64,000 bases of DNA from Candidatus Woesearchaeota archaeon (GCA_964530955.1 CAZHCL010000001.1:49381-113380); one strand, 5' to 3'; counted from the first letter of the stretch, positions 2,990-55,195 are shown. Notes: a model not told the origin generated them from the letters alone. Program-made: numbers and translations.

Positions 2990-5365
2990 ATGACTATGCC
3001 TAGATTTAAGGATATTAAGAATTGGTCCCCTGAAATAGAGAAACAAATAACTTCTGAATGGGTTAAGTCTGATAAATTTAAGTTCAATGAAAAAACGAAA
3101 AAAAAGATTTATTCCATAGATACTCCTCCGCCTTATGTTAACACTCCAGTACATATCGGTCAGACAGTAACTTACTGCTACATGGATTTTTTTGCCCGCT
3201 ACAGAAGAATGAAAGGATTTGAAGTCATTTTCCCTCTTGGACTTGATAGGAATGGTCTTCCGATCGAGATGGCTGCTGAGAAAAAGTTCAATGTTTCGCC
3301 ATTTTTAATCGGAAGAGATAAGTTTATTGAATATTGCGAGCAACTTCTTAAACAAACTTCTTCTGAGACAACAAACACGTTTGAGAAGTTGGGAATTTCA
3401 TTCACCTCTTACAAGCAAGGCGAACATATTGGAGCAGTTTACTTTACAGATTCTCCAGAATATAGGGCGGTTACCCAGGCAACATTTATTGAACTATATA
3501 AAAAAGGATTAGTATATGAGGATACTAGAATAAATAACTGGGATCCTAGGTTGCAGACTACTATTGCTGATTCTGAAATAGAATATAAAGAAGTACCTTC
3601 TAATTTTAATCACGTTAAATGGCAAATAAAGGAAACTGGTGAGGAAATAATAATTGCTACAACCCGCCCAGAACTTATATGTACATGCGGAATGATTATA
3701 TATAATCCAAAAGATGAAAAATATGTAAATTTAAAGGGTAAAACGGCTGTTTCCCCCATATTTAACAAAGAAATACCTATCCAACCCCATCCATTGGCAC
3801 AAATTGATAAAGGTTCAGGTCTTGTAATGATGTGTTCTGCTGGAGACTTATCCGATATTCAATTTTTTAGAGAGATGAATCTAAAACCAAAAATAGCGAT
3901 TGAAAAAGATGGCAGAATGAATGAATATGCTGGCAAATTTAAAGGATTAAAAGTTAAGGAAGCAAGACAGAAAATTATTGAAGAACTGAAATCAGAAGGA
4001 TTGCTGATAAAGCAAGAACAGATAATGCACCGAACTCCAATATCTGAGCGTTCTGGCGCAGAGATAGAGTTCATAGAAATGCCTGAATTTTATCTTACAC
4101 AGTTAAATATAAAAAATAAGATAAAAAAAATTTCCAGGGAAGTTGATTTTTACCCTCCAGAATCAAGAAAGATTCTTGATGATTGGATAGATTCAATCTC
4201 GATTGACTGGCCTATTTCAAGAAGAAGATATTACGCTACCCCGATACCAATCTGGCATAGTAAAGATAGAAAAAAGATAGCATTGCCTTCTGCAGGAAAT
4301 TACTATATTCCTTGGAAAGAATCTCCACCAAAAGATGCAGAAGTATATGAAAAAGGAAAATTAATAGGAAAATTAAAAGATTTTAAGGAAGAATGGTCTG
4401 GAGAAGAGAGAGTGTTTGATACATGGATGGACTCTTCAATTTCTGAGCTGGTCATGCTAAAATATAAATCAAATCCTGAATTCTTTAAGAAAGCATATCC
4501 TGCATCTCTCCGCCCACAGGGTAAGGAGATAATTAGAACTTGGCTTTATTATACTCTTCTCAGAGGTTATCTGGAGACTGAAAAAGCATGCTTTAAAGAT
4601 GTATGGATAAATCAACATATTGTTGATGAAAAGGGCAAGAAAATGTCAAAGTCAGTTGGAAATGTGGTTGATCCTCAGGAATTATTGAAAAAATTTGGTG
4701 GAGAAGCAATAAGACTCTGGGCATCTATAGAAGGAAATCTTGCTAAGCAGGACTTAAAATGCTCAGAAGATAAAATAAGAGCTGAAACAAAAACAATTAA
4801 CAAACTTATAAATCTCACAAAATTCGTTTTGCAATTTAAAAGACCAAAAAAAGCAGATACTACTGCTCTTGACTCTCTGTTCATTGATTATATTGAAGAC
4901 TTGACAGATTTTGCAGACAGACAATATGAAGAATATAATTTTTACCAGCCGGCGTTAAAGATAAGACAATTCCTTTGGGAAATATTTGCATCTCATTACA
5001 TTGAGATAGTCAAAAATAGGGTCTATAATCAGGAAAAAAGATTCACACAACGCGAGCAAGAATCTGCGCAATACACATTGTACTACCTTTTGGAAAGAAT
5101 GCTCCTACTCCTTCATCCTATTGCACCACAAATAACTTCGGTTATTCTGGAAGAGTTGAATGTTGAAATAGAAGATTTTCCAAAGCCTAAAAAAATAAAG
5201 AGCGATTTGGGTTTGATTGAAAAGATAATGCAATTTAACAGCGAAGTATGGAAGACTAAAAAAGATAAGGGCATTTCTTTGCGGGACCCTATATCTAATA
5301 TGACCATTCCAAATGAAATAAAAATATTTGAATCAGATCTTAAAGCGTGCCATAACCTAGTTTAG
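2990..5365 (+). CDS. valS: Valyl-tRNA synthetase
   Basis: DTPPPYVN..HIGQ (HIGH), DW.ISRR, DTWMDS, KMSKS; 791 aa. Confidence 0.95.
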   Translation: MTMPRFKDIKNWSPEIEKQITSEWVKSDKFKFNEKTKKKIYSIDTPPPYVNTPVHIGQTVTYCYMDFFARYRRMKGFEVIFPLGLDRNGLPIEMAAEKKFNVSPFLIGRDKFIEYCEQLLKQTSSETTNTFEKLGISFTSYKQGEHIGAVYFTDSPEYRAVTQATFIELYKKGLVYEDTRINNWDPRLQTTIADSEIEYKEVPSNFNHVKWQIKETGEEIIIATTRPELICTCGMIIYNPKDEKYVNLKGKTAVSPIFNKEIPIQPHPLAQIDKGSGLVMMCSAGDLSDIQFFREMNLKPKIAIEKDGRMNEYAGKFKGLKVKEARQKIIEELKSEGLLIKQEQIMHRTPISERSGAEIEFIEMPEFYLTQLNIKNKIKKISREVDFYPPESRKILDDWIDSISIDWPISRRRYYATPIPIWHSKDRKKIALPSAGNYYIPWKESPPKDAEVYEKGKLIGKLKDFKEEWSGEERVFDTWMDSSISELVMLKYKSNPEFFKKAYPASLRPQGKEIIRTWLYYTLLRGYLETEKACFKDVWINQHIVDEKGKKMSKSVGNVVDPQELLKKFGGEAIRLWASIEGNLAKQDLKCSEDKIRAETKTINKLINLTKFVLQFKRPKKADTTALDSLFIDYIEDLTDFADRQYEEYNFYQPALKIRQFLWEIFASHYIEIVKNRVYNQEKRFTQREQESAQYTLYYLLERMLLLLHPIAPQITSVILEELNVEIEDFPKPKKIKSDLGLIEKIMQFNSEVWKTKKDKGISLRDPISNMTIPNEIKIFESDLKACHNLV

Positions 5366-5402
5366 CGCATAGCTTTATTAATCATTCTTATATTTTATAA
5401 TT

Positions 5403-6503
5403 ATGGAAATCGACCAAAAGAAAAGACAGGAACTTGAAGAACTTGTAAGCTTACTTGGAAGCATCAGAGGAAGTCATACTGAACTCGTAACTGTTCTTAT
5501 TCCTGCAGGTACTAATATTCATCAAGTTTCAAACCAGCTCGCTGCAGAAGCAGGAACTGCTGAAAACATAAAATCCAAGTCAACAAGAACAGCAGTAGTC
5601 ACTGCTCTTGAAACGATTATAAGAAAATTAAAAGACTATAAACAGACTCCTCCTCATGGACTTGCTATTTTCTGCGGAAATATTTCTGAGAAAGAAGGCG
5701 TTCAGGATGTGAAAATATGGTCCTATGAGCCTCCAAGACCCTTGAACGTAAGAATTTATAGATGCGATAAAACATTTGTCGTTGAACCTTTAAAAGAAAT
5801 GCTTGAAGTTCAGGAGGTTTATGGTTTACTTGCAATAGACAGACAGGAAGCGACTATCGGAGTTCTTGAGGGTAAGCAAATTAAGGTCATAAGAAAGCTT
5901 AGCTCTGGAGTTCCAGGAAAAGTTAGGGCGGGAGGGCAGTCATCCCAAAGATTTGCTAGAATAACAGAAGGACTTGCAAAAGAGTTTTTTAGGAGGGTCT
6001 CGGATTCTATGAAAGAAATATTTTTTGACATGCCAAAGCTAAAGGGAATACTTGTTGGCGGACCAATTCCTACAAAAGAAGAATTTCTTGAGTTAGGAGA
6101 TTTGGTTACAAAGTTAAAAGAAAAAGTAATTGCTGTTAAGGATATAGGATACACTGATGAGCATGGTCTAAGATTACTTGTTGAGGCATCTCAGGAAGAT
6201 TTGTCAGAGCAAGAGTTGATGAAGGAGAAAGATATAGTAAATAAATTCCTTGAGACTCTTGGAAAGCACAGAGAAAAGGCATCCTATGGTCTTGAAAAAA
6301 CATCTTTGGCATTGGAAAGGGGAGCAGTTGAAAAACTCCTTTTATCGAAAAAACTTGATAAAAGAGAGACTCTGGAATTAGAGAAGAAAGCTGAGAATAT
6401 TGGTTCTGAAGTTTTTATAATTTCTACTGAAACTGAAGAGGGTGAGCAATTTTATAATATAACCAAGGGGATAGGCGCCATTTTAAGATTTCAAATTGAA
6501 TAA
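5403..6503 (+). CDS. prf1: Peptide chain release factor aRF1
   Basis: NIKS, YRCDKTF (YxCxxxF) and GGQS motifs; ends GIGAILRF. Confidence 0.96.
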   Translation: MEIDQKKRQELEELVSLLGSIRGSHTELVTVLIPAGTNIHQVSNQLAAEAGTAENIKSKSTRTAVVTALETIIRKLKDYKQTPPHGLAIFCGNISEKEGVQDVKIWSYEPPRPLNVRIYRCDKTFVVEPLKEMLEVQEVYGLLAIDRQEATIGVLEGKQIKVIRKLSSGVPGKVRAGGQSSQRFARITEGLAKEFFRRVSDSMKEIFFDMPKLKGILVGGPIPTKEEFLELGDLVTKLKEKVIAVKDIGYTDEHGLRLLVEASQEDLSEQELMKEKDIVNKFLETLGKHREKASYGLEKTSLALERGAVEKLLLSKKLDKRETLELEKKAENIGSEVFIISTETEEGEQFYNITKGIGAILRFQIE

Positions 6504-44940: not shown

Positions 44941-45108
44941 ATGAAAAGAAAGGAAAAGGACAAGCTTACGATTCTAGTTGATAAGGATATAAAAGAAAGT
45001 TACAAACAACATTGTGATACTCATGGGTTGATTATGGGAAAGCAGATTGAATTGTTCATGGAAAATGAGCTGAAGAGAAAAGAAGAGAGGAAAAATGATA
45101 AGAAGTAA
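44941..45108 (+). CDS. Ribbon-helix-helix (CopG/ParG-like) protein, absent from ORF track
   Basis: MKRKEKDKLTILVDKDIKESYKQHCDTHGLIMGKQIELFMENELKRKEERKNDKK*: alternating strand KLTILVD, helix, G turn, helix; overlaps the next start. Confidence 0.75.
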   Translation: MKRKEKDKLTILVDKDIKESYKQHCDTHGLIMGKQIELFMENELKRKEERKNDKK

Positions 45109-45856
45109 GAGAGCCCAAATAGGAATATGGGTGATAATTGCAATATGTATTGTTGGAGTAATGGCTTTGCTGTTTTTTTTGAGCAAAAAACCTACCATAC
45201 TTCCTCAAAACGAATTTAATGCACAGAGTTCAATTGAAAAATGTGTTAGGGATTCAATAGGCGAAGCAGTTGAAAAAATGATTCCTCAGGGAGGATTGAT
45301 TCTTACTGGAGATTATAAAAGTTATATGAATATTAATGTGACTTATCTATGTGAGTATAAAGGTTACTTCAAACCGTGCATATCTCAGCACCCTATGTTG
45401 GTGAATGAAGAAATAAAACAAATACATGACTATATTTATCCGAAAATTGACCTTTGTTTCTCAAATGCAAGAGACGAACTTCAAAAGAGAAATTATGATG
45501 TGTCTCTTGACCCTAATATGGAAATAAATATTTCTCTTGGTTCTGGAAACGTTTATTCTTTTATTCAAAGAAAAATGAGTGTTTCTAAAAATAATCAGAC
45601 AGAATCTTTCAATAAATTTAATATTGAATTTGCTAGCCCAATATATGACCTGACAAATGTTGCAGTGGACATAGCAAGTCAGGAAGCAAAATACTGCTAT
45701 TTTGAATATGTGGGATATAACCTTCTTTATCCTAGATTTGATATTAGCAAATTTACTTTTTCTGATTCAACAAAGATATATATCATAAAGGATAACTATT
45801 CTAATAAAGTAATGAATATTGCAGTAAGAGGCTGCGCAATTCCTCCGGGAATATAA
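45095..45856 (+). CDS. Class III signal-peptide (pilin-like) protein, paralog A
   Basis: KRA/QIGIWVIIAICIVGVMALLFFL; shares YLC...Y...C, YDL, YP motifs with 49725..50489. Confidence 0.8.
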   Translation: MIRSKRAQIGIWVIIAICIVGVMALLFFLSKKPTILPQNEFNAQSSIEKCVRDSIGEAVEKMIPQGGLILTGDYKSYMNINVTYLCEYKGYFKPCISQHPMLVNEEIKQIHDYIYPKIDLCFSNARDELQKRNYDVSLDPNMEINISLGSGNVYSFIQRKMSVSKNNQTESFNKFNIEFASPIYDLTNVAVDIASQEAKYCYFEYVGYNLLYPRFDISKFTFSDSTKIYIIKDNYSNKVMNIAVRGCAIPPGI

Positions 45857-45859
45857 AAG

Positions 45860-48800
45860 ATGGTGAAAAAAATAAATAAAACGATCTATGGTGCGGTTAT
45901 ATTTCAAATAGCATTAATGATGGGAATGACTGTGTCATTTTCATATATTCTTAATGAAGCTTCAAATACTGGAGCAACTGTAGGTAATTCCAATCAAAAT
46001 GGGATTCAAAAAGTTCTTCTGCATGCACTTTGGATTCTTGACAAAATAGTTTTTAATCAGAATAACTTTGCTTCTGCTCTTTCACAGAGTGATTTGAAGC
46101 AGTGATGCTATACCTGACATATTGATAAAAATGGATCAATATGTCAAGAATATCCTGCAAGTGATTGTGCTGGGCAATGTTCTGTTAGTTGTTTGCCTAC
46201 TGCTGCTGACCAAACTTCTGTCTGCAAAGTGGGAACATGCTACGATCCTGTTCAGGGAACATGTCAAACAGGAGCTCCTCAGGAAGCATGCCAGCAGAAT
46301 GGAGGAAAGTGGTTTAATGACCCCTATGGAAATGTTGCACAATGCATGCCTGGATGCTGCCTACTTGGAAATAGTGCTTACTTTCTGACTTCACAGCAAT
46401 GCGCTAGAAATGCAAATGCCACGGGATTAAAAAGTGATTTTAGACCTGAAGTAAACACTGAAATTGGATGTCTTGCTCTTTCACAGACTCAGGAGCAGGG
46501 AGCATGTGTATTTGAAGACAATACTGGATTACAAAATACTTGTAAATTTACGAGTAAACTTAATTGCCAGCAGGATTTGAAAGGAAAATTTTATTCTGGA
46601 CTATTATGTTCAAATTCTGCATTAAATACAAATTGCAAGCCTCAGGCAAGCATAAGCTGTATCCAGGGAAAAGATGAAGTTTACTGGATAGACTCATGCG
46701 GAAATCAGGAAAATATTTACGATGCAAATAAGGTGGCTAGCTTTAACAATGGAAATATTTTAAGTAAAAATAATAGTTGCTCTCTTTCTGTTGGAACAAA
46801 TTCTTTAGCAAATCAGGCAAGTTGTGGAAACTGCAATTATCTTTTGGGAAGTATTTGCGGGACAAAAACAAGCACGCAAAAATTATCTGAACCAAATGCA
46901 AATGTTGTATGCAAAGACATTTCATGCATTGATGAAAATGGAAAGAAAAGACTGAATGGAGAATCTTGGTGTGCATATCAGAGTTCAACAGGAACAGAAA
47001 AAGGAGCAGGAGGATACTTGAGAGCTACAGATACTGTAGGGTCGAGAGATTTCAGAGAATCATGTATTAATGGAGAGATTAAAACTGATCCTTGTGCTGA
47101 TTACAGAAATGAAATATGCACGCAGTCACAGACCACCACTCCTGATGGAGAAATATCTTCTGCTGCCTGCAGAATTAATTTAGGATATCAATGTTATGAC
47201 TATAATTCAAAGGGGAAAAAAGATTTCTGTGACCAAAATCCTGACTGTTTTATAAAACATGTTCAGGTAACTGATAGTTTTGTATTTGATATTTGCGCTC
47301 CAAAATATACTCCTGGATTTGACTTGACCGCAAGAGGAGGGAGTGCTGCAAGTATTTGCTCACTCGCAACACAAACATGCACTGTTGTTTATGTTCACCA
47401 GCTTTTCGGAGGATGGAAGTGCAAAGCAAATTGTGATTGTGAGACACCAAAATTTGCTGAGCAGATGAACGACTTATGTATTTCATTAGGCGATTGCGGG
47501 ACAAAAACAAATTATCTTGGAGATTTAAGTAAAAATAGTAGAACAATAAAAGATGGAAGAACTGGAGGTCCTACTTTAAGCAGCGGTTACATTAATGGTT
47601 TGGTAAAAGATGCAAACGAAAAACTTTTCAAAAATAATTATATTGCCGCAGGAGATCCTTCCAAGTTATATGCTCAACTCGGGATTCCAGGTTGGCTTGG
47701 GCAGGCGCAGACTCCTACTGATCCTACAATTGGCATAAGAGGAGTAGCGTCGATGGTTTCCGGTATGGGTGGAGTAATGCTTTGGGGATTGACACATCTG
47801 GCTGTTGGCCATGCTGTTTTAAGCTCGGTCGGGTTAATGGTTCCTCTTCAAGGGCCTACCCTTACGGGAGCTCCTCTTGGAAGCGTAGTAAATCCTACAT
47901 TCGGAGCAATCAGTGGAGCAGCAAGCGGAGCTGCAGTTGGATTAGCAATAGTTTCATTCTTAATTGATTTTACAGGAATTGGTCCTGGAATTCCTCCTGA
48001 ATTAACTTATGGTCTAATGGCAGCAGGAGCGATTGGAGGAGCAATTGTCGGATTGCAAATTACAGGCCATTCAGCAGTAATTGGAGTCCTCTCAACAAAT
48101 CCTGTTGGATGGATAATCCTGGCGGTCGTAATTATAATTATAATAATTCTTTCAATACTTGGAATTGGAAAGATAAAGAAAATAAATTATACTTTCCAAT
48201 GCAATGTCTGGCAGCCGACACCTGGAGGAAATAAATGTAGTCAATGCGGAAGCGATGGTTTTCCATGTAGTCAATATTCATGCCAAAGTTTGGGACAGAC
48301 TTGTCAGCTTGTGAATGAGGGAACTGCAAATCCTGCTTGTGTAAATATGGCTCCTAATGACACTTCTCCTCCAGTAATTACTCCTTACTCTGGATTGCTA
48401 CCTGATGGATATACTGCTAATGTTGTGCAAAATGGTGTGCAAATAAAAGCATCTGGAAATGGAGGATGTATTTCTGAAACTTACCAGCCAATTACTTTTG
48501 GAATATTGTTAAATGAATATGGACAGTGTGCAGTCAGTAGTAATCACACTTCTTCATTCGATGAAATGGATCAGGTATTAAGCGCAGGATTATATTTACA
48601 GAATCACAGTTTGCCGATACTAGTTCCGAGTGCAGAAAGTTTGGGATTAGAAAGTTTTGACCCTAATGCAAGTGCAGATTACAATATTTATGTCAGATGC
48701 CAGGATAAATCTGGAAATGCAAATATGAATGAGTATGATATTAATTTCTGCATAAAACCTGGAAACGACACTACCCCTGCGAGTATTATAGATAGTAATC

Positions 48801-49702
48801 CTTCTTTTGGTACTGTTGCGTATAATGTAACAAATATAGATGAATCAATAATAACAAGTGAACCTGCAGAGTGCAACTGGGATATTACAGATAAAGTATA
48901 TAATTTAATGGCAAATAATTTCAGCTGCCAGAATAATATTGAAAATAGAACTAGCCTTTCTTTGGTCAGCCCTTCAGGATGGGAATGCAATGCCCAGTTG
49001 CCTTTCGCAATGTCTCAAAATTCTAGCACATATTATGTAAGATGTCTAGACCAACCCTGGCTTACTGGAGAAAATGTTAGCAAGAGAAATGTAAATACTC
49101 AGGGCTATCCTCTGACTTTTACTCGAACGAAAAATCCTTTGAATATTACTTCAATAAATGTGGATGGAAAGAATTTAACATTTGGAACAGCTCCTGCGAG
49201 TGTTGAAGTTGATGTAAAAACTTCTGGAGGATTGGATGGAACTGCCAAGTGCTCCTATATCTGGGGCAATTCTACAATTGATTTTATGGATACTTGGAAA
49301 ACAACCAGCACACAGGTTTTTCAGAGCATATATCCAGGTACTATAACTCTTCCAATAGTATGCCAAGATTCTATTGGAGATGTAGCGCAGAAAACAGTTC
49401 ACTTTAAGATATTACTAGATACTTCTGCTCCCGAAATAAGTAGAGCTTATGTTCAGTCAGGAACTTTGAATATTATAACTAATGAAAAATCAAGCTGTTA
49501 TTACAGCACAGATATCAGCCAACAGTGTTTGTTTGACATGAATAATGCAAGCCAGTTTAATGGAGTAAACATTGTATCTCACACTATAAGTTTTGATACT
49601 AAAAATACATATTACATAAAGTGCAAAGATTCTTTTGGAAACTATCCTGGAACATGTAATATGATAATAAGGCAGGGCAATTATGAGTCGCAACAATTAT
49701 AA
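45860..49702 (+). CDS. Giant Cys-rich surface protein (1280 codons) interrupted by in-frame TGA at 46103 and 46115; readthrough, pseudogene or sequence error unresolved
   Basis: ORFs 45860..46105 and 46193..49702 share one frame; intervening codons read Q*CYT*HIDKNGSICQEYPASDC and align to paralog CCEKTLSGLSCQ. Confidence 0.75.
46115..46146. repeat. Perfect 12-bp inverted repeat starting at the second in-frame TGA
   Basis: TGACATATTGAT-AAAAATGG-ATCAATATGTCA. Confidence 0.95.
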
Positions 49703-49724
49703 ATGTAAAACATCTGGTTTATCC

Positions 49725-50489
49725 ATGCAGGCAAAAAAGGGACAGGTAGCTATATTTGTGATTATTGCAATTGTTATTGTTGGAGCGATACTTCTTATCT
49801 TTTTGTATCCAAAAATTCCAATCATTAGTCAAAATTCAGAACTCTCTCCTGTTGCTTATCTAAAAAGTTGCATAACTCCTGAAATAAATAAGGATGTCTT
49901 ACTTCTTTCAAAGAATGGAGGATATGCAAATCCTGAAGGTGTTCTTGATTATCAGGGAGATAAAATAAAATATTTATGCTATACTTCTGAATATTACAAA
50001 ACTTGCGTTGTTCAACAGCCTTTGATAAAAGAGCATTTTGAACAGGAGCTCAATACTCTTGTACATAGTAAAGTAAATGATTGCGTTCAGAGTTTAAAGC
50101 AGGAATACATAAACAGAGGATACGATATAACTCTTGGAAATATTGAAAGCAAGACAAGTATTAATCCGGATAATATATTAGTTTCTATCACCTCTCCTAT
50201 TACTGTAAGCAAGGCAGGGGCATCTCAAACCTTTAACGGATTTGATGTTCAAATAGGGAGCAAGATGTATGACCTGCTCATGATAACTGTCAGCATAATT
50301 GATTATGAATCGACATTGGGAGACAGCGAGACTACATTGTATCTTCAATATTATCCTGATTTGAAAATAGAAAAGGTTAAATTGAGTGATGGCAGTAAAG
50401 TTTATACTCTGACCGATGTTGTTAGCGATGAAAGCTTCAGATTTGCGTCGAGAAGTCTTGCCTGGCCGCCAGGTTATGGAGGAGCATAA
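49725..50489 (+). CDS. Class III signal-peptide (pilin-like) protein, paralog B
   Basis: MQAKKG/QVAIFVIIAIVIVGAILLIFL; ATG at 49725. Confidence 0.82.
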   Translation: MQAKKGQVAIFVIIAIVIVGAILLIFLYPKIPIISQNSELSPVAYLKSCITPEINKDVLLLSKNGGYANPEGVLDYQGDKIKYLCYTSEYYKTCVVQQPLIKEHFEQELNTLVHSKVNDCVQSLKQEYINRGYDITLGNIESKTSINPDNILVSITSPITVSKAGASQTFNGFDVQIGSKMYDLLMITVSIIDYESTLGDSETTLYLQYYPDLKIEKVKLSDGSKVYTLTDVVSDESFRFASRSLAWPPGYGGA

Positions 50490-50491
50490 AA

Positions 50492-52024
50492 ATGGAAGAA
50501 AAAAATAAAATAATGAAAGGGATTTTGTTGCTAGTCGGATTGTCTGTTTTTATTCTAGTAGCTAATATAAATTTTTCATCTGCAGATGGACTTAATCAGA
50601 CAATTTGCTGTGAGAAAACTCTTTCTGGACTTTCATGCCAAAATGTTCCGCAGGATCAATGCAGTCCTAATTCAAGACAGGCTCCAACTTCATGTGACTC
50701 AACTTCATTCTGCAAGCCAGGAGTTTGTTATAATTCTGTTCAGGGAACATGCTTAGACAACACTCCTCAAATAACTTGCAATTCTAATGGAGGAGTATGG
50801 AGTGCACAAACACCCCCACAATGTTCTCTAGGATGCTGTATTCTAGGCAATCAGGCAGCTTTCGTGACTCTTACAAGATGTAAATACTTATCCTCTTCTT
50901 TAGGATTACAAACTAATTATAACAATAATGTACAGGATGAAAATCAGTGTATTTTACAAGTTCAGAATCAGGACCAGGGAGCCTGCGTCTATACTGATCA
51001 ATTCCAGAAGACTTGCAAGTTTACAACAAGAGGAGAGTGCGGAGCTAATTTAAATGGCACAAGTGCACAAGCGCAATTCTTCAAAGACAAGTTATGCAGT
51101 GCTCCAGAACTAGGAACTAACTGCGCGCCTACGACAAAGACTGCCTGTATTCCTGGAAAAGATGAAGTTTATTTTGTTGATACTTGTGGAAATCCGGGAA
51201 ATATTTATGATTCTTCAAAAATAAATGACCAGGATTACTGGACAAATGTAAAAACTAAAGACCAATCATGCAGTCCTTCATCAGGCAATGCAAATTCACC
51301 TAACTGCGGTAACTGCAATTATTTATCCGGAAGCATTTGCAGAGCAGCTAATTCAACTGGACAAAAGCCAAGTTATGGAAGTTATATATGCCAAGATTTA
51401 AACTGCGGGAAAACATCAGACGGAAAATCTTACAAGCAGGGAGAATCCTGGTGCGTCTACAATGATCAGGGAGGAAGTTCAAATTCGAACAATGCAGTTG
51501 GAAGCAGATTCTACAAGCACATTTGTGAAAATGGACAGGAAGTTCTTGAGCAATGTGCGGACTTTAGACAGGAAGAATGCATTCAAGATAGCATACAAAC
51601 TTCAGCTGGGCCTTTCTCTCAGGCAGCATGCAGGGTAAACCGATGGCAGGATTGCACTGCTCAAACTAACAAAGCTGACTGCGCTAATAGTGATAAAAGA
51701 GACTGCACCTGGGAAGCGGGAGCAGCAATAGGAAATTCAACTGGCGGAGCTTGCATTCCGACTAATTCTCCCGGTTTACAGTTCTGGTCTGGAGATCAAG
51801 CTCAGAGTATTTGCTCGCAGGGAAATGCACAGTGCATAGTTACATTCGAGAAAGGACTTTTTGGTGGAGAGACTTGCAAAAGTAATTGTCAATGTTTAAC
51901 ATCTGGATGGCAACAGCAAAGAATCCAAATTTGTGAATCTCTTGGAGACTGCGGACCAAAAATAAACTGGATTGGAAGCCAAGGATACAAAGCAGGATAC
52001 AATCTTACTATCCGAAAAGCATAA
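50492..52024 (+). CDS. Secreted Cys-rich protein matching the N-half of the giant protein
   Basis: Signal peptide; shared motifs GCC.LGN, QGACV, GKDEVY..D.CGN, GESWC.Y, CAD.R.E.C, LGDCG. Confidence 0.85.
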   Translation: MEEKNKIMKGILLLVGLSVFILVANINFSSADGLNQTICCEKTLSGLSCQNVPQDQCSPNSRQAPTSCDSTSFCKPGVCYNSVQGTCLDNTPQITCNSNGGVWSAQTPPQCSLGCCILGNQAAFVTLTRCKYLSSSLGLQTNYNNNVQDENQCILQVQNQDQGACVYTDQFQKTCKFTTRGECGANLNGTSAQAQFFKDKLCSAPELGTNCAPTTKTACIPGKDEVYFVDTCGNPGNIYDSSKINDQDYWTNVKTKDQSCSPSSGNANSPNCGNCNYLSGSICRAANSTGQKPSYGSYICQDLNCGKTSDGKSYKQGESWCVYNDQGGSSNSNNAVGSRFYKHICENGQEVLEQCADFRQEECIQDSIQTSAGPFSQAACRVNRWQDCTAQTNKADCANSDKRDCTWEAGAAIGNSTGGACIPTNSPGLQFWSGDQAQSICSQGNAQCIVTFEKGLFGGETCKSNCQCLTSGWQQQRIQICESLGDCGPKINWIGSQGYKAGYNLTIRKA

Positions 52025-52064
52025 ATACTTCTTATTCTTTCTGAATTGGCACTTGGTTGATAAA

Positions 52065-52760
52065 ATGAAAGGTATCAATGGATTGCAAAAAATAGTTTTG
52101 GCAGGTTCTTTATTAGGATTTACTGGCTGCGAGAACATGAGCGAGTATGAGCCTTCTTCTCAAAATAGATTAAATTCTGCAATATTTAGTGGCGCTGCGC
52201 AAAATGCTCCAACTCAGGGAAGTAGGGTTGCGTGGGGTCTTCTCGGGCAGGCATATGCTGCAGAGGCAGCACATCAGGAAAGGATGGCTGAAGCTGCTGC
52301 TGGGAGAAGCCAGATTAATATTAATCAAAACCAGTATCCTACGCAAAATAGTTCTGCAAATAATGGAACTCAATTCACTGCAACCATATATCCTAGAATG
52401 AATTTGTGGACTGATAGGAATAATAATGGGCAGGTTGAGGCTGAAGAATTGACTGAGACAAATAATTTTCATGTTATGCAGTGGGCAATGCCTTCATTTT
52501 ACAATGAGTCTAAATTTCCTATAAACGCTGAAATTATAGTAACGGATTCATCAAAAAAGACAATTATAGATGACTGCTGCGTTCTCGCTCCTTGCCCTGA
52601 TTCGGCCCGGGCAACCATTAAGTTTGTCTATTTTACAGATGATGGAACAAATAATATGAGTCCGTATAGTGTTGCCTTTAATGTTATAATGGATGCAAGA
52701 ACAGTTCCAGTCAAGAAAAGTACATTAATTGTTTATTCAGTTAACTTTCTTCCGAAATAG
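52065..52760 (+). CDS. Putative lipoprotein of unknown function
   Basis: MKGINGLQKIVLAGSLLGFTG/C lipobox-like; DRNNNGQVEAEE EF-hand-like loop; ATG at 52065. Confidence 0.6.
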   Translation: MKGINGLQKIVLAGSLLGFTGCENMSEYEPSSQNRLNSAIFSGAAQNAPTQGSRVAWGLLGQAYAAEAAHQERMAEAAAGRSQININQNQYPTQNSSANNGTQFTATIYPRMNLWTDRNNNGQVEAEELTETNNFHVMQWAMPSFYNESKFPINAEIIVTDSSKKTIIDDCCVLAPCPDSARATIKFVYFTDDGTNNMSPYSVAFNVIMDARTVPVKKSTLIVYSVNFLPK

Positions 52761-52834
52761 ATGCTATTTAATGTGAATAACCTTTTTTCATAAATATTAA
52801 GAATATTTATAAACATAAAAATTCTTGATAAAGG

Positions 52835-55195
52835 ATGAGGAAAGAGCTGAAAAAGAGGGCTGTATTTTTTAGTGTAATTTGCCAAATATTTTTGTTGATA
52901 GGGACAAGTTTTGCTTTTGCTTTTTTAATTAGTGATAATTTTGTTAATGCAGCAGGAGGAATTTTAGGTAGTTCAGCCCCTGCTCAGACAACTCCAACAC
53001 CAGTATATATTGCCAAGACTCCCAGTGCGAGTATTATTGGAACTGGCAGCAGTACTCAAGCGGCTGCATTGTCTCCAATACAAAACTTTCCTGCCGGAGG
53101 GATTACAATACCTAACACTTTTGAAGTGAATAATCCTACATTTGGTGGTCTTGAAACTTGGTCTCAGGGAAGCACAATTAAAACTCAAGTTTATGATTCG
53201 GCCGCAGGGAAATGGCAATTATCGGGTACATATTCTGATGGAACAACTTGGAGTGAATCTGTTGACCAGGGTACCTTTAACCAGATACTCACTAAATCAG
53301 GATACCAACAAATACCTCAGGCGCAGGCGAAGATACTAGGAATAGGTCCTACTGTGAGTGGCGGATTTTCTTATCTTGTTCAGGGATTAAACTATGCAAT
53401 ACTTGTTGCAGGAGTGATACAACTTATTGGGCCCCTCATTGGTCTTAGTTCTCAGACTACAAAGGCATTAACTGTTTCTGCAATTGGAGGAATTATCGCC
53501 GGTAAAGCTGTTGGTTCTCTTGGGGCAGCAGGTTTTGGGAAGGAAGCTAACTTAATAGGCGGAAAATTCGGTAATTGGCTTACGGGTGGTTATGGCCAGT
53601 TTACAGTTGGAGCAATAGTTGCAATAGCGATATTTATTGCGATGTATTCATCTGAATCAAAGAAACTTGTTAACTTCCAATGCTTGCCATTTGAGCCTCC
53701 TCTTGGTGGGAGTCAATGCGAGCAATGCAACAAAGATCCTTTCAGACCATGCTCCGAATATAGATGCAGATCTCTTGGACAGGCATGCCAATTACTTAAT
53801 GCTGGAACAGGGCAAGAACAATGCGCCTGGGTTGGAAGTAATGATGTGAAAAGCCCAACTATTACTCCTTGGGATGCAGCATTATCTCCTTTCGGATTGA
53901 AATATTTACCTGACACTGCAGTAAGACCTCCCGCAATAGGAACTAAAATAGTAACTTCGAGCGGAGGATGTCTTCCTGCTTTCACTCCTCTTCAATTTGG
54001 AATAACAACTGATGAGCCTTCGCAATGCAAGATAGATTACAATCACACTTCTTCATTCGATGACATGCAATATTATTTCGGAGGAAGCAATTATTATGCA
54101 TATAATCATACTGAGCAGCTTAGATTGCCGGGGCCAGATACTGGAAATAACAGCATCGCTCCTGAGATAAAGAATGATGGAAGTTTCTCATTGTATGCAA
54201 GATGCAGAGATGCAAACGGAAACTTTAACGTCGATGAATATGCATTTTCATTCTGCGTTGACAAGGGACCAGATACAACGCCTCCAGTGATAGAAGGATT
54301 TTCTATACCTTCTGGAAGCTATGTTGGATTTAATCAAAATACAGTTCCTATTGAATTATATGTTAATGAGCCATCAGAATGTAAGTGGAGCACTCAAAGT
54401 AAGGCATATGATGACATGGAAAATTCTCTGACATGCTTCACTCAGAGTTATCAGGTCAATGCTAACTTACAATATACTTGCTACGGAAATGTTACTGGAG
54501 TTACTAATAATCAGGATAATAATTATTATTTCAGATGCAAAGATCAGCCCGGAAAGCCGGACAACCAAAGAAATGTCGATGTACAAAGTACTCTTCTTGA
54601 TTTGAAAGGCTCACAACCACTGGTGATACTTTCTGCTTCACCTAACTCAACAATTACTGGAAGCGCAGACACTGTTCCAGTAACTCTTCAGCTTGAGACA
54701 AGCGCAGGAGCCCAGGGAAATGGAAATGCTACGTGCTATTTCTCGCCTACTGGAGAAAATGATAGTTATATTGCAATGTTTGAAACAAATAGTTACTTGC
54801 ATAGCCAGGACTTGAATCTACCTAATGGAAATTATAATTATTATTTCAGATGCATAGACTTAGGTGGAAACGCAGCGGAGGCAAACACGACTTTCAGCGT
54901 ATCCGTGGACAAGCAAGCTCCTCAGGTGACAAGAGTTTACAAACAAGATGCTCTTAAAATAGTCACAGATGAAAGTGCCGAGTGCAGTTATTCACTTACT
55001 TCCTGTAATTTTGATATTTCAGATGGATTGAAGATGATTTACTCCAATCCAGATATAAGGAATAATTTGTATGCTGAATGGAAACCTAGCAGCACATATT
55101 ATATAAGATGCAGAGACTTGTTTGGTAATGAACCTTCTCCTAATCAGTGCAGCATTGTTGTAAGTGCAGTAACTCTTACTGGTAAAAGCAGTTAA
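52835..55195 (+). CDS. Surface protein matching the C-half of the giant protein
   Basis: N-terminus ICQIFLLIGTSFAFAFLI like 45860; Gly/Ala hydrophobic region; FQC...GG..C..C, CQSLGQ/CRSLGQ, NHTSSFD, RC.D..GN, DT..P, YYIRC.D.FGN. Confidence 0.88.
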   Translation: MRKELKKRAVFFSVICQIFLLIGTSFAFAFLISDNFVNAAGGILGSSAPAQTTPTPVYIAKTPSASIIGTGSSTQAAALSPIQNFPAGGITIPNTFEVNNPTFGGLETWSQGSTIKTQVYDSAAGKWQLSGTYSDGTTWSESVDQGTFNQILTKSGYQQIPQAQAKILGIGPTVSGGFSYLVQGLNYAILVAGVIQLIGPLIGLSSQTTKALTVSAIGGIIAGKAVGSLGAAGFGKEANLIGGKFGNWLTGGYGQFTVGAIVAIAIFIAMYSSESKKLVNFQCLPFEPPLGGSQCEQCNKDPFRPCSEYRCRSLGQACQLLNAGTGQEQCAWVGSNDVKSPTITPWDAALSPFGLKYLPDTAVRPPAIGTKIVTSSGGCLPAFTPLQFGITTDEPSQCKIDYNHTSSFDDMQYYFGGSNYYAYNHTEQLRLPGPDTGNNSIAPEIKNDGSFSLYARCRDANGNFNVDEYAFSFCVDKGPDTTPPVIEGFSIPSGSYVGFNQNTVPIELYVNEPSECKWSTQSKAYDDMENSLTCFTQSYQVNANLQYTCYGNVTGVTNNQDNNYYFRCKDQPGKPDNQRNVDVQSTLLDLKGSQPLVILSASPNSTITGSADTVPVTLQLETSAGAQGNGNATCYFSPTGENDSYIAMFETNSYLHSQDLNLPNGNYNYYFRCIDLGGNAAEANTTFSVSVDKQAPQVTRVYKQDALKIVTDESAECSYSLTSCNFDISDGLKMIYSNPDIRNNLYAEWKPSSTYYIRCRDLFGNEPSPNQCSIVVSAVTLTGKSS

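What the first reader, a model, noticed from the sequence alone, without database searches (positions are those of the whole stretch)
46098..46146. Two in-frame UGA codons with RNA structure gate the giant protein
The 81-aa ORF and the 1169-aa ORF are one frame: ...DLKQ-TGA-CYT-TGA-HIDKNGSICQEY.... The upstream piece carries the export signal (homologous to the N-terminus of 52835). The second TGA aligns with a Cys of paralog 50492 (CCEKTLSGLSCQ) and would complete a CxxU-like motif. It begins a perfect 12-bp hairpin (46115-46146), and the first TGA sits in a GUGA (GNRA) tetraloop closed by AGCA/TGCT. There are three competing readings: (a) programmed readthrough or selenocysteine-like recoding; (b) a quasi-palindrome template-switch mutation that perfected the hairpin and switched the gene off, possibly reversibly; (c) an amplification or assembly artefact. 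TGA is a normal stop elsewhere in the window, so any recoding must be local.
Basis: partly seen in the sequence, partly recalled or inferred. Interest (0 to 1): 0.85.

Follow-up and report, generated by a model that had tools for sequence, protein, structure and literature searches.

The report
Private double-stop allele, not UGA recoding
The two in-frame TGA codons are real in this assembled genome but are a four-base change private to it, which truncates a surface-protein gene that reads Gly and Cys at those codons in five other assembled copies of the same species and has no in-frame stop in relatives, so this is a fresh knockout (or an error), not a special genetic code.

Summary
In a small-genome (Pacearchaeota-type, DPANN) archaeon, a 1280-codon Cys-rich surface-protein gene is interrupted by TGA at 46103-05 and 46115-17. 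The second TGA opens a perfect 12-bp hairpin (46115-46146).

The recoding reading fails.
- No tRNA-Sec, SelD, SelB, PSTK, SepSecS or SECIS was found.
- TGA ends 104 of 563 long ORFs.
- Eleven same-genus orthologs are uninterrupted. Of 119 full-length homologs, 117 read Cys at the second site (the other 2 have gaps) and 80 read Gly at the first.
- Conspecific assemblies (two ENA contigs, Logan contigs of four rhizosphere runs) read GGA AGC ... TGC CCT.

One contig, L018, differs from the window inside the 3843-nt gene at only four bases: 46103, 46106, 46117 and 46119. Two of them turn a 10/12 imperfect inverted repeat into the perfect 12/12 hairpin. That is the signature of a quasi-palindrome template-switch mutation, and it necessarily creates the second TGA. 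The hairpin is not conserved in other species (1-7/12).

Best reading: a very recent loss-of-function allele, with the second stop made by template switching. Ordinary biology; low interest.

The parts
45860..46102 (+). First 81 codons of the surface-protein gene: Lys-rich N-terminus plus one hydrophobic helix (residues 9-31), i.e. the signal anchor. In this allele it is cut off from the rest of the protein.
   Evidence: The intact 1280-aa version P0002 is continuous through this point.
46103..46119 (+). Private cluster of four substitutions relative to near-identical strains: 46103 G>T (GGA Gly to TGA), 46106 A>T (AGC Ser to TGC Cys), 46117 C>A (TGC Cys to TGA), 46119 C>A (CCT Pro to CAT His).
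   Evidence: Compared with L018, these are the only four differences in the 3843-nt gene. L017 has the same sense allele, as do the Logan contigs of runs X1-X4 (X4 covers only the second site).
46103..46105 (+). First in-frame TGA. It aligns with a mostly conserved Gly.
   Evidence: Codon alignment with 11 congeners: GGA or GGG in 8, TCA in 1, gaps in 2. Among 119 homologs: Gly 80, Ser 13, Ala 9.
46115..46117 (+). Second in-frame TGA. It aligns with an invariant Cys, the first Cys of the protein.
   Evidence: TGT or TGC in all 11 congeners. Cys in 117 of 119 homologs; the other 2 have gaps. Residues 1-85 contain no Cys.
46115..46146 (+). Perfect 12-bp inverted repeat with an 8-nt spacer (left arm 46115-46126, right arm 46135-46146). 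The right arm is made of the conserved Ser-Ile-Cys-Gln codons.
   Evidence: Arm complementarity is 12/12 here, 10/12 in L017 and L018, and 1-7/12 in other species.
46098..46109 (+). Mini-palindrome AGCA-GTGA-TGCT around the first TGA. The private change at 46106 completes its fourth pair. It is not used in the predicted minimum-energy fold.
   Evidence: Sequence, fold, sense allele AGCA-GGGA-AGCT.
46118..49702 (+). Remaining 1194 codons of the gene plus the stop: a Cys-rich ectodomain, a Gly/Ala-rich hydrophobic core (about residues 680-776 of the intact protein) and a beta-rich C-terminal part. There is no other lesion.
   Evidence: At the DNA level it is identical to L018.
46193..49702 (+). 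The 1169-aa ORF from an internal TTG, as annotated in the public record of this contig (P0124). It lacks the signal anchor.

Best explanation
The two TGAs are ordinary stop codons in a very recent loss-of-function allele of a conserved Pacearchaeota surface-protein gene. In the ancestral state, still carried by near-identical strains, the gene reads ...Q G S Y T C P I D K N G S I C Q... as one 1280-codon frame. The codons for C-P-I-D and S-I-C-Q happen to form an imperfect inverted repeat, complementary at 10 of 12 positions.

Inferred step: during DNA synthesis the nascent strand switched template within this quasi-palindrome and copied the other arm. This replaced TGCCCT with TGACAT, which perfects the hairpin and necessarily creates TGA plus a Pro-to-His change. 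Two further substitutions 11 and 14 nt upstream (GGA AGC to TGA TGC) belong to the same 17-nt cluster. They probably arose in the same error-prone event or at the same hotspot, but the hairpin does not template them.

Consequence (inferred): translation ends after 81 residues. The signal anchor is separated from the ectodomains, so the gene is off. The hairpin is a by-product of the mutation, not a regulatory RNA element.
For: - Derived and private. L018 (ENA assembly) differs from the window at 9 of 6843 positions, and inside the gene only at 46103, 46106, 46117 and 46119.
- L017 (second ENA assembly, 56 differences in 9843 nt) carries the same sense allele at all four sites. So do the Logan contigs of rhizosphere runs X1-X3; X4 covers only the second site and is sense there.
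- In the roughly 2% divergent strain, the differences that lie inside the hairpin (46132, 46135, 44, 47) are synonymous by the codon frame, so the gene looks to be under selection in the population.
- Eleven same-genus orthologs are single open frames of 1253-1335 aa.
- Among 119 homologs, the second-site column is Cys in 117 (the other 2 have gaps) and the first-site column is Gly in 80.
- Templating. Arm complementarity is 10/12 in L017 and L018 and 12/12 in the window. Of the 9 possible base pairs at 46117 and 46119, the observed A,A is the only one that gives a 12-nt reverse-complement match; the next best gives 7.
- Hairpin energy is -13.3 against -4.2 kcal/mol.
- No donor copy of the patch exists elsewhere in the genome.
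- The mechanism is established in bacteria, yeast and RNA-gene evolution (PMC7202029, PMC8794818, PMC8604942).
- Inference: contigs are built from words of 21 bases or more, so reads carrying all four changes together must have existed at assembling depth in the source data. This favours a real allele.
Against: - The allele was seen in no assembly other than this MAG. A scan of JGI contigs with N at the four sites found neither allele.
- The hairpin tract does not explain 46103, and it explains 46106 only through a 4-bp mini-palindrome or a 6-nt direct match.
- All four changes are transversions towards A/T, and three are G:C>T:A. That is unusual for natural point mutation and is also the spectrum of oxidative damage during library preparation (from my own knowledge).
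- Two nonsense codons among four changes is a coincidence that needs either selection for loss of function or luck.
- In run X1 the contigs break inside the hairpin (46122-46130), which is unexplained.
Confidence: 0.6

Rival explanations
1. Artefact. The four bases do not exist in the organism. They come from library preparation (fold-back or strand-pairing artefacts at inverted repeats, or oxidative G>T damage), or from error correction, assembly or polishing of a low-coverage, multi-strain metagenome. The gene is intact in the cell.
For: - Every other assembly of this population reads sense codons.
- Depth in the laid runs is only about 3-7x per word.
- Several strains coexist, and in X1 the contigs break exactly at the hairpin.
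- Three of the four changes are G:C>T:A.
- Artefacts that 'correct' imperfect inverted repeats during fragmentation and end repair are documented (PMC10908179, PMC6941819, PMC7531576).
Against: - Such artefacts are reported as low-frequency calls. By inference they sit near read ends and would not normally win an assembly path.
- All four changes lie within 17 nt, so they must co-occur on the same reads at assembling depth.
- Outside the arms the flanks are not converted to the reverse complement, as fold-back chimeras would be.
- K-mer confusion between the two arms cannot make this sequence at k of 21 or more, because the loop is asymmetric (inference from the sequence).
- None of the listed runs holds 100% of the words, and X1 differs at 45968. 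The MAG's source sample was therefore probably not among the runs laid, so its absence there is weak evidence.
Confidence: 0.3
2. Programmed recoding. One or both UGAs are decoded (selenocysteine at the Cys-aligned site, or stimulated readthrough), with the hairpin acting as the stimulatory RNA element, so the full-length protein is made.
For: - The second TGA aligns with an invariant Cys, which is the classical Sec/Cys pattern.
- A stable hairpin starts at that codon.
- The remaining 1194 codons are intact.
Against: - No tRNA-Sec and no UGA-reading tRNA was found.
- selD gave no hit. The selB model hits only EF-1alpha-type and IF-2-type GTPases below its cut-off. SepSecS and PSTK gave no hits. 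The genome is 82.7% complete.
- No SECIS or any other Rfam match was found across the gene and its 3' end.
- The first TGA aligns with Gly, not Cys.
- No ortholog or conspecific strain has a stop at either site.
- The hairpin is absent from other species. It also starts at the UGA itself rather than downstream of it, as bacterial SECIS elements do; archaeal SECIS elements lie in the 3' UTR (from my own knowledge).
- The intact downstream frame is explained by the allele being extremely young: zero other differences from L018.
Confidence: 0.03
3. Contingency switch. The quasi-palindrome is a mutational hotspot that repeatedly and reversibly turns this surface protein off and on in the population, like phase variation.
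For: - Surface proteins are typical targets of on/off variation.
- The site is a quasi-palindrome in the conspecific strains.
- A paralogous split copy of the protein lies next door (50492 and 52835), so loss may be tolerated.
Against: - Only one off-allele has been seen, in one assembly.
- A perfected palindrome has no template to restore the original bases, and two separate stops would both have to revert.
- The quasi-palindrome is not conserved in other species (1-7/12), so it is not a maintained device.
Confidence: 0.05

Closest known systems
Quasi-palindrome-associated template-switch mutations (Ripley-type; E. coli lacZ QP reporters, yeast, and RNA hairpin evolution: PMC7202029, PMC8794818, PMC8604942)
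   Same: There is an imperfect inverted repeat in the ancestral allele. Several nearby bases change at once, exactly at the mismatched stem positions and to the complement of the other arm, producing a perfect hairpin. The change is a multinucleotide mutation inside a coding sequence.
   Different: Here it is seen only as a natural variant in a metagenome-assembled DPANN archaeon, with no experimental proof of an in-vivo origin. Two more substitutions of the same cluster lie outside the templated tract.
Selenocysteine insertion (UGA plus SECIS, with tRNA-Sec, SelB, SelD and, in archaea, PSTK and SepSecS)
   Same: An in-frame UGA sits at a position where homologs have Cys, with an RNA hairpin nearby.
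   Different: None of the machinery was detected. No SECIS-like match was found. The hairpin position is wrong for both the bacterial and the archaeal type. The UGA is not conserved even within the species. A second UGA sits at a Gly position.
Inverted-repeat library-preparation artefacts (PDSM model and fragmentation-enzyme artefacts: PMC10908179, PMC6941819, PMC7531576)
   Same: Mismatches in an imperfect inverted repeat are replaced by the complement of the other arm.
   Different: Those artefacts are low-frequency miscalls in read data. Here the variant is the consensus of a 113-kb assembled contig, and the flanks are not converted.
Ordinary nonsense pseudogene or null allele of a surface protein in a natural population
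   Same: A premature stop separates the signal anchor from the ectodomain. Sister strains have an intact gene. A paralogous copy lies nearby.
   Different: There are two stops four codons apart, created by a 17-nt cluster of four transversions rather than by a single point mutation.

Membership tests
Selenocysteine recoding | tRNA-Sec (anticodon UCA) in the genome | tested here: not met
   ARAGORN finds 36 tRNAs, none Sec or UCA. Rfam RF01852 gives only sub-threshold hits (30 bits or less, against a cut-off of 47), and these fall on the ordinary tRNA-Lys, tRNA-Ser and tRNA-Leu. The genome is 82.7% complete.
Selenocysteine recoding | SelD, SelB and (in archaea) PSTK and SepSecS | tested here: not met
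   selD: no hit. selB: only EF-1alpha-type and IF-2-type GTPases, 159 bits or less against a cut-off of 242. SepSecS: none. PSTK/KTI12: none.
Selenocysteine recoding | SECIS element (just downstream of the UGA in bacteria, in the 3' UTR in archaea) | tested here: not met
   An Rfam E-value scan of 45000-50600 finds no SECIS and nothing with E below 2.9. The hairpin begins at the UGA itself.
Selenocysteine recoding | UGA aligned with Cys in homologs and conserved as UGA in some orthologs | tested here: inconclusive
   The second UGA aligns with an invariant Cys. However, no ortholog or conspecific strain has UGA there, and the first UGA aligns with Gly.
Programmed stop-codon readthrough | Stop codon and stimulatory structure conserved among relatives | tested here: not met
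   There are no stops in the 11 congeners or in the conspecific contigs: L017, L018 and X1-X3 at both sites, X4 at the second site only. Arm complementarity is 1-7/12 in other species.
Reassigned genetic code (TGA = Trp or Gly) | TGA not used as a stop genome-wide, and a cognate tRNA present | tested here: not met
   TGA ends 104 of 563 long ORFs. No UCA tRNA was found; tRNA-Trp has anticodon CCA. A scan for other double-TGA junctions found no other convincing interrupted gene.
Quasi-palindrome template-switch mutation | Imperfect inverted repeat in the ancestral allele | tested here: met
   L017 and L018 carry TGCCCTATTGAT / ATCAATATGTCA, complementary at 10 of 12 positions.
Quasi-palindrome template-switch mutation | Derived bases lie at the mismatched positions and equal the complement of the other arm | tested here: met
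   Changes at 46117 and 46119 give 12/12. The observed base pair is the unique best of 9 alternatives (a 12-nt match against 7 or fewer).
Quasi-palindrome template-switch mutation | All clustered changes are explained by one copied tract | tested here: not met
   No single direct or reverse-complement template covers all four sites. For 46103 and 46106 the best match is a 6-nt direct copy, only marginally better than the alternatives.
Quasi-palindrome template-switch mutation | The event happened in the cell, not in vitro | not testable with these tools
   Only contigs of public runs could be laid. Raw reads of the source sample were not available.
Diversity-generating retroelement target (variable region) | A template repeat homologous to the variable stretch, with differences at template adenines | tested here: not met
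   The genome does carry a DGR elsewhere. But no second copy of the 46100-46126 patch exists in the genome, even allowing 2-4 mismatches.

The most novel reading that the evidence does not exclude
The quasi-palindrome formed by the codons of the first two conserved cysteines is a natural mutational hotspot. Through it, populations of this DPANN archaeon recurrently generate tight (double-stop) null alleles of a host-contact or virus-receptor surface protein. The allele in this genome would then have risen to dominance in its sample under selection. This would be a template-switch-based contingency locus in archaea.
Probability: 0.06. Interest if true: 0.55.

Novelty: new member of a known kind. 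Interest (0 to 1): 0.18.

Why it matters
The main value is as a caution. A UGA aligned with an invariant Cys and sitting next to a perfect hairpin looks like selenocysteine or readthrough. Yet population and ortholog comparison show a days-old knockout, or an error, in an otherwise intact gene. If the allele is real, it is a clean natural example, in an uncultivated DPANN archaeon, of a quasi-palindrome template switch creating a nonsense mutation and a new perfect hairpin in one step. It would also show that this large, conserved Cys-rich surface protein can be lost in some cells, perhaps because a split paralog lies next to it. Neither point changes current understanding.

Tried and rejected
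- A scan of JGI metagenome contigs with a 41-nt pattern carrying N at the four sites gave 0 hits for either allele.
- An exact look-up of the 81-aa product found it not on record.
- The look-up of cluster member P0123 showed it to be a C-terminal fragment, irrelevant to the site.
- No RNA holder was listed among the sequencing runs, so nothing can be said about expression.
- Gene conversion from a paralog or another locus: there is no donor copy of the patch in the genome.
- DGR mutagenesis: the genome has a DGR, but no template repeat matches this site.
- One template-switch tract for all four changes: not found, in register or out of it.
- The crude genome-wide scan for same-frame segments separated by stops (269 junctions) was too noisy to use. 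The other double-TGA junctions I inspected are intergenic or in non-coding frames.
- The sigma-70 promoter and terminator scan is not applicable to an archaeon and showed nothing relevant.
- Pfam finds no family for the protein or its neighbours, apart from a sub-threshold Big_13 hit in 52835.
- My first hairpin count was spoiled by runs of N in contigs C6 and C11. I redid it with N excluded.

Full report
**What is there.** The window belongs to a 761-kb, 26-contig, 82.7%-complete archaeal genome. It encodes MCM, EF-1alpha and archaeal-type PheRS. Homologs of the gene in question are labelled Pacearchaeota or Nanoarchaeota. The frame starting at ATG 45860 reads 81 codons, then TGA (46103-05), then Cys-Tyr-Thr, then TGA (46115-17). 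After that come 1194 open codons to 49702. The second TGA is the first triplet of a perfect 12-bp inverted repeat with an 8-nt spacer (46115-46146).

The intact protein (P0002, 1280 aa) has these features:
- an N-terminal signal anchor (residues 9-31);
- no Cys before residue 86;
- 43 Cys in residues 86-620;
- a Gly/Ala-rich hydrophobic core (about residues 680-776);
- a C-terminal part with 18 Cys.

Pfam finds no family. The family is large: 1063 proteins at E<=1e-50, all unnamed.

**Is it recoding?** No. TGA ends 104 of 563 long ORFs. The 36 tRNAs include no tRNA-Sec and none that reads UGA. The Rfam tRNA-Sec model only grazes ordinary tRNAs below threshold. selD, SepSecS and PSTK give no hit. 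The selB model hits only EF-1alpha-type and IF-2-type GTPases below its cut-off. An Rfam E-value scan over the gene and its 3' end finds no SECIS. A genome-wide look for other double-TGA junctions found no other convincing interrupted gene.

**What do relatives have at the two codons?** Eleven same-genus genomes carry the ortholog as one open frame of 1253-1335 aa with no internal stop.
- In the codon alignment, the first TGA sits on GGA or GGG (Gly) in 8 of the 11 (TCA in one, gaps in two), and the following TGC sits mostly on GCN (Ala).
- The second TGA sits on TGT or TGC (Cys) in all 11, and the following CAT sits on CCN (Pro) in the two closest species.
- Among 119 full-length homologs, the second-site column is Cys in 117 (the other 2 have gaps). 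The first-site column is Gly 80, Ser 13, Ala 9.

**What do conspecific strains have?** Logan contigs of four rhizosphere metagenome runs that hold this stretch read sense codons wherever they cross the site: 46103 G, 46106 A, 46117 C, 46119 C. X1-X3 cover all four sites, while X4 covers only the last two. Run X1 is otherwise identical to the window across 45600-46700 except at 45968. Runs X2-X4 carry a strain about 2% divergent, and its differences inside the hairpin (46132, 46135, 46144, 46147) are synonymous by the codon frame.

The protein search returned an intact 1280-aa version, and its 90% cluster holds:
- two intact proteins from two ENA assemblies;
- the window's own 1169-aa annotation;
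- a C-terminal fragment.

The DNA of the two ENA contigs is 99.4% (L017) and 99.87% (L018) identical to the window. Both read GGA AGC TAT ACC TGC CCT. Inside the 3843-nt gene, L018 differs from the window at exactly the four clustered positions and nowhere else. The double-stop allele is therefore derived, private to this assembly, and extremely young.

**What made it?** In L017 and L018 the arms are TGCCCTATTGAT and ATCAATATGTCA, complementary at 10 of 12 positions. The window's changes at 46117 and 46119 hit exactly the two mismatches and install the complement of the right arm, giving 12/12. Of the nine possible base combinations at those two positions, only the observed one yields a 12-nt reverse-complement match; the next best yields 7. 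The right arm consists of the conserved Ser-Ile-Cys-Gln codons, so copying it necessarily writes TGA-CAT into the left arm.

This is the textbook signature of a quasi-palindrome template-switch mutation (PMC7202029, PMC8794818, PMC8604942). The hairpin is not a conserved element. Arm complementarity is 1-7/12 in the other species, and predicted stability rises from -4.2 to -13.3 kcal/mol only in this allele.

The two upstream changes (46103 G>T, 46106 A>T) are not covered by that tract. 46106 completes a 4-bp mini-palindrome, and the two together create a 6-nt direct match to AGTGAT at 46088. That match is only marginally better than the alternatives. I regard these two changes as part of the same error-prone event or hotspot, but this is inference. 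Error-prone synthesis at hairpin-forming sequences is known in yeast (PMC3874155).

**Real or artefact?** I could not lay raw reads. The allele appears in no other assembly, and all four changes are transversions towards A/T. In X1 the contigs break inside the hairpin. Artefacts that perfect inverted repeats during library preparation are documented (PMC10908179, PMC6941819).

Against an artefact:
- Such errors are reported as low-frequency calls.
- The four changes must co-occur on the same reads at assembling depth to enter a 113-kb contig.
- The flanks are not converted, as they would be in fold-back chimeras.
- The asymmetric loop rules out confusion between the arms at the word sizes assemblers use.
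- None of the laid runs is a perfect holder (best 0.93), and X1 differs at 45968. The source sample was therefore probably not among them.

My odds are about 0.6 for a real in-vivo allele, 0.3 for an artefact, 0.03 for recoding and 0.05 for a recurrent switch.

**Consequence.** If the allele is real, translation stops after the signal anchor. The first in-frame ATG, GTG or TTG after the stops is the TTG at 46193, which is the start of the annotated 1169-aa ORF. A product from it would lack the export signal. The neighbouring genes 50492 and 52835 are homologs of the N-terminal and C-terminal halves, so loss may be tolerated. Reversal is unlikely, because the perfected palindrome no longer carries the original bases and two stops would have to revert.

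**Other checks.** DGR mutagenesis was considered because the genome encodes a reverse transcriptase. It does carry a clean DGR, but that lies 45 kb upstream of the window and on contig C18. No template-like copy of this site exists anywhere in the genome.

**Earlier notes of this scan.** Another first-stage note (e1-5777468) reported the same two TGAs from an overlapping window and recalled a conserved Cys at the second. My alignments confirm that. A further note (e1-5777478) describes the neighbouring split paralogs, which agrees.

**Verdict.** The quasi-palindrome reading is supported for the second stop, and an artefact is not excluded. This is ordinary biology: a fresh null allele made by a known mutational mechanism.

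Noticed in passing
Outside the window, same contig: G000:C1:971-5565 (the RT part is in L019) and G000:C18:7723-7809: A complete diversity-generating retroelement. The parts are a reverse transcriptase with a YVDD motif (C1:4388-5565), a template repeat just upstream (C1:4280-4359), and three variable repeats at the 3' ends of target genes (C1:978-1057, C1:1773-1852, C18:7730-7809). Mismatches between template and variable repeats fall at template adenines in 19/19, 11/12 and 14/14 cases. DGRs are known in DPANN archaea.
   Followed up: partly
G000:C1:4388-5565 (L019): The DGR reverse transcriptase is read in two overlapping frames (4388-4837, and an open frame from about 4765 to 5565). This could be a frameshift, a sequencing error or a broken gene.
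   Followed up: no
window 45021-45024: Another multinucleotide difference between near-identical strains: ACT CAT in the window and L017 against ACC CGA in L018 (His to Arg). It lies in the small ORF upstream of the surface-protein operon, within a short quasi-palindromic context.
   Followed up: partly
window 49976-49991: Six differences spaced exactly 3 nt apart between the window and L017, in the gene 49683-50489. This looks like a short recombination tract from a more divergent allele.
   Followed up: no
window 45095-55195: A conserved Pacearchaeota surface-protein cluster. The 1280-aa protein is followed by a 268-aa gene, a 510-aa homolog of its N-terminal half (50492) and a 786-aa homolog of its C-terminal half (52835). 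The same fused and split forms recur in most of the 40 related genomes searched. No Pfam family matches.
   Followed up: partly
G000 contigs C6 (about 27093) and C11 (about 24222): Runs of 200 and 100 N. These are scaffold gaps or masked stretches in the assembly.
   Followed up: no
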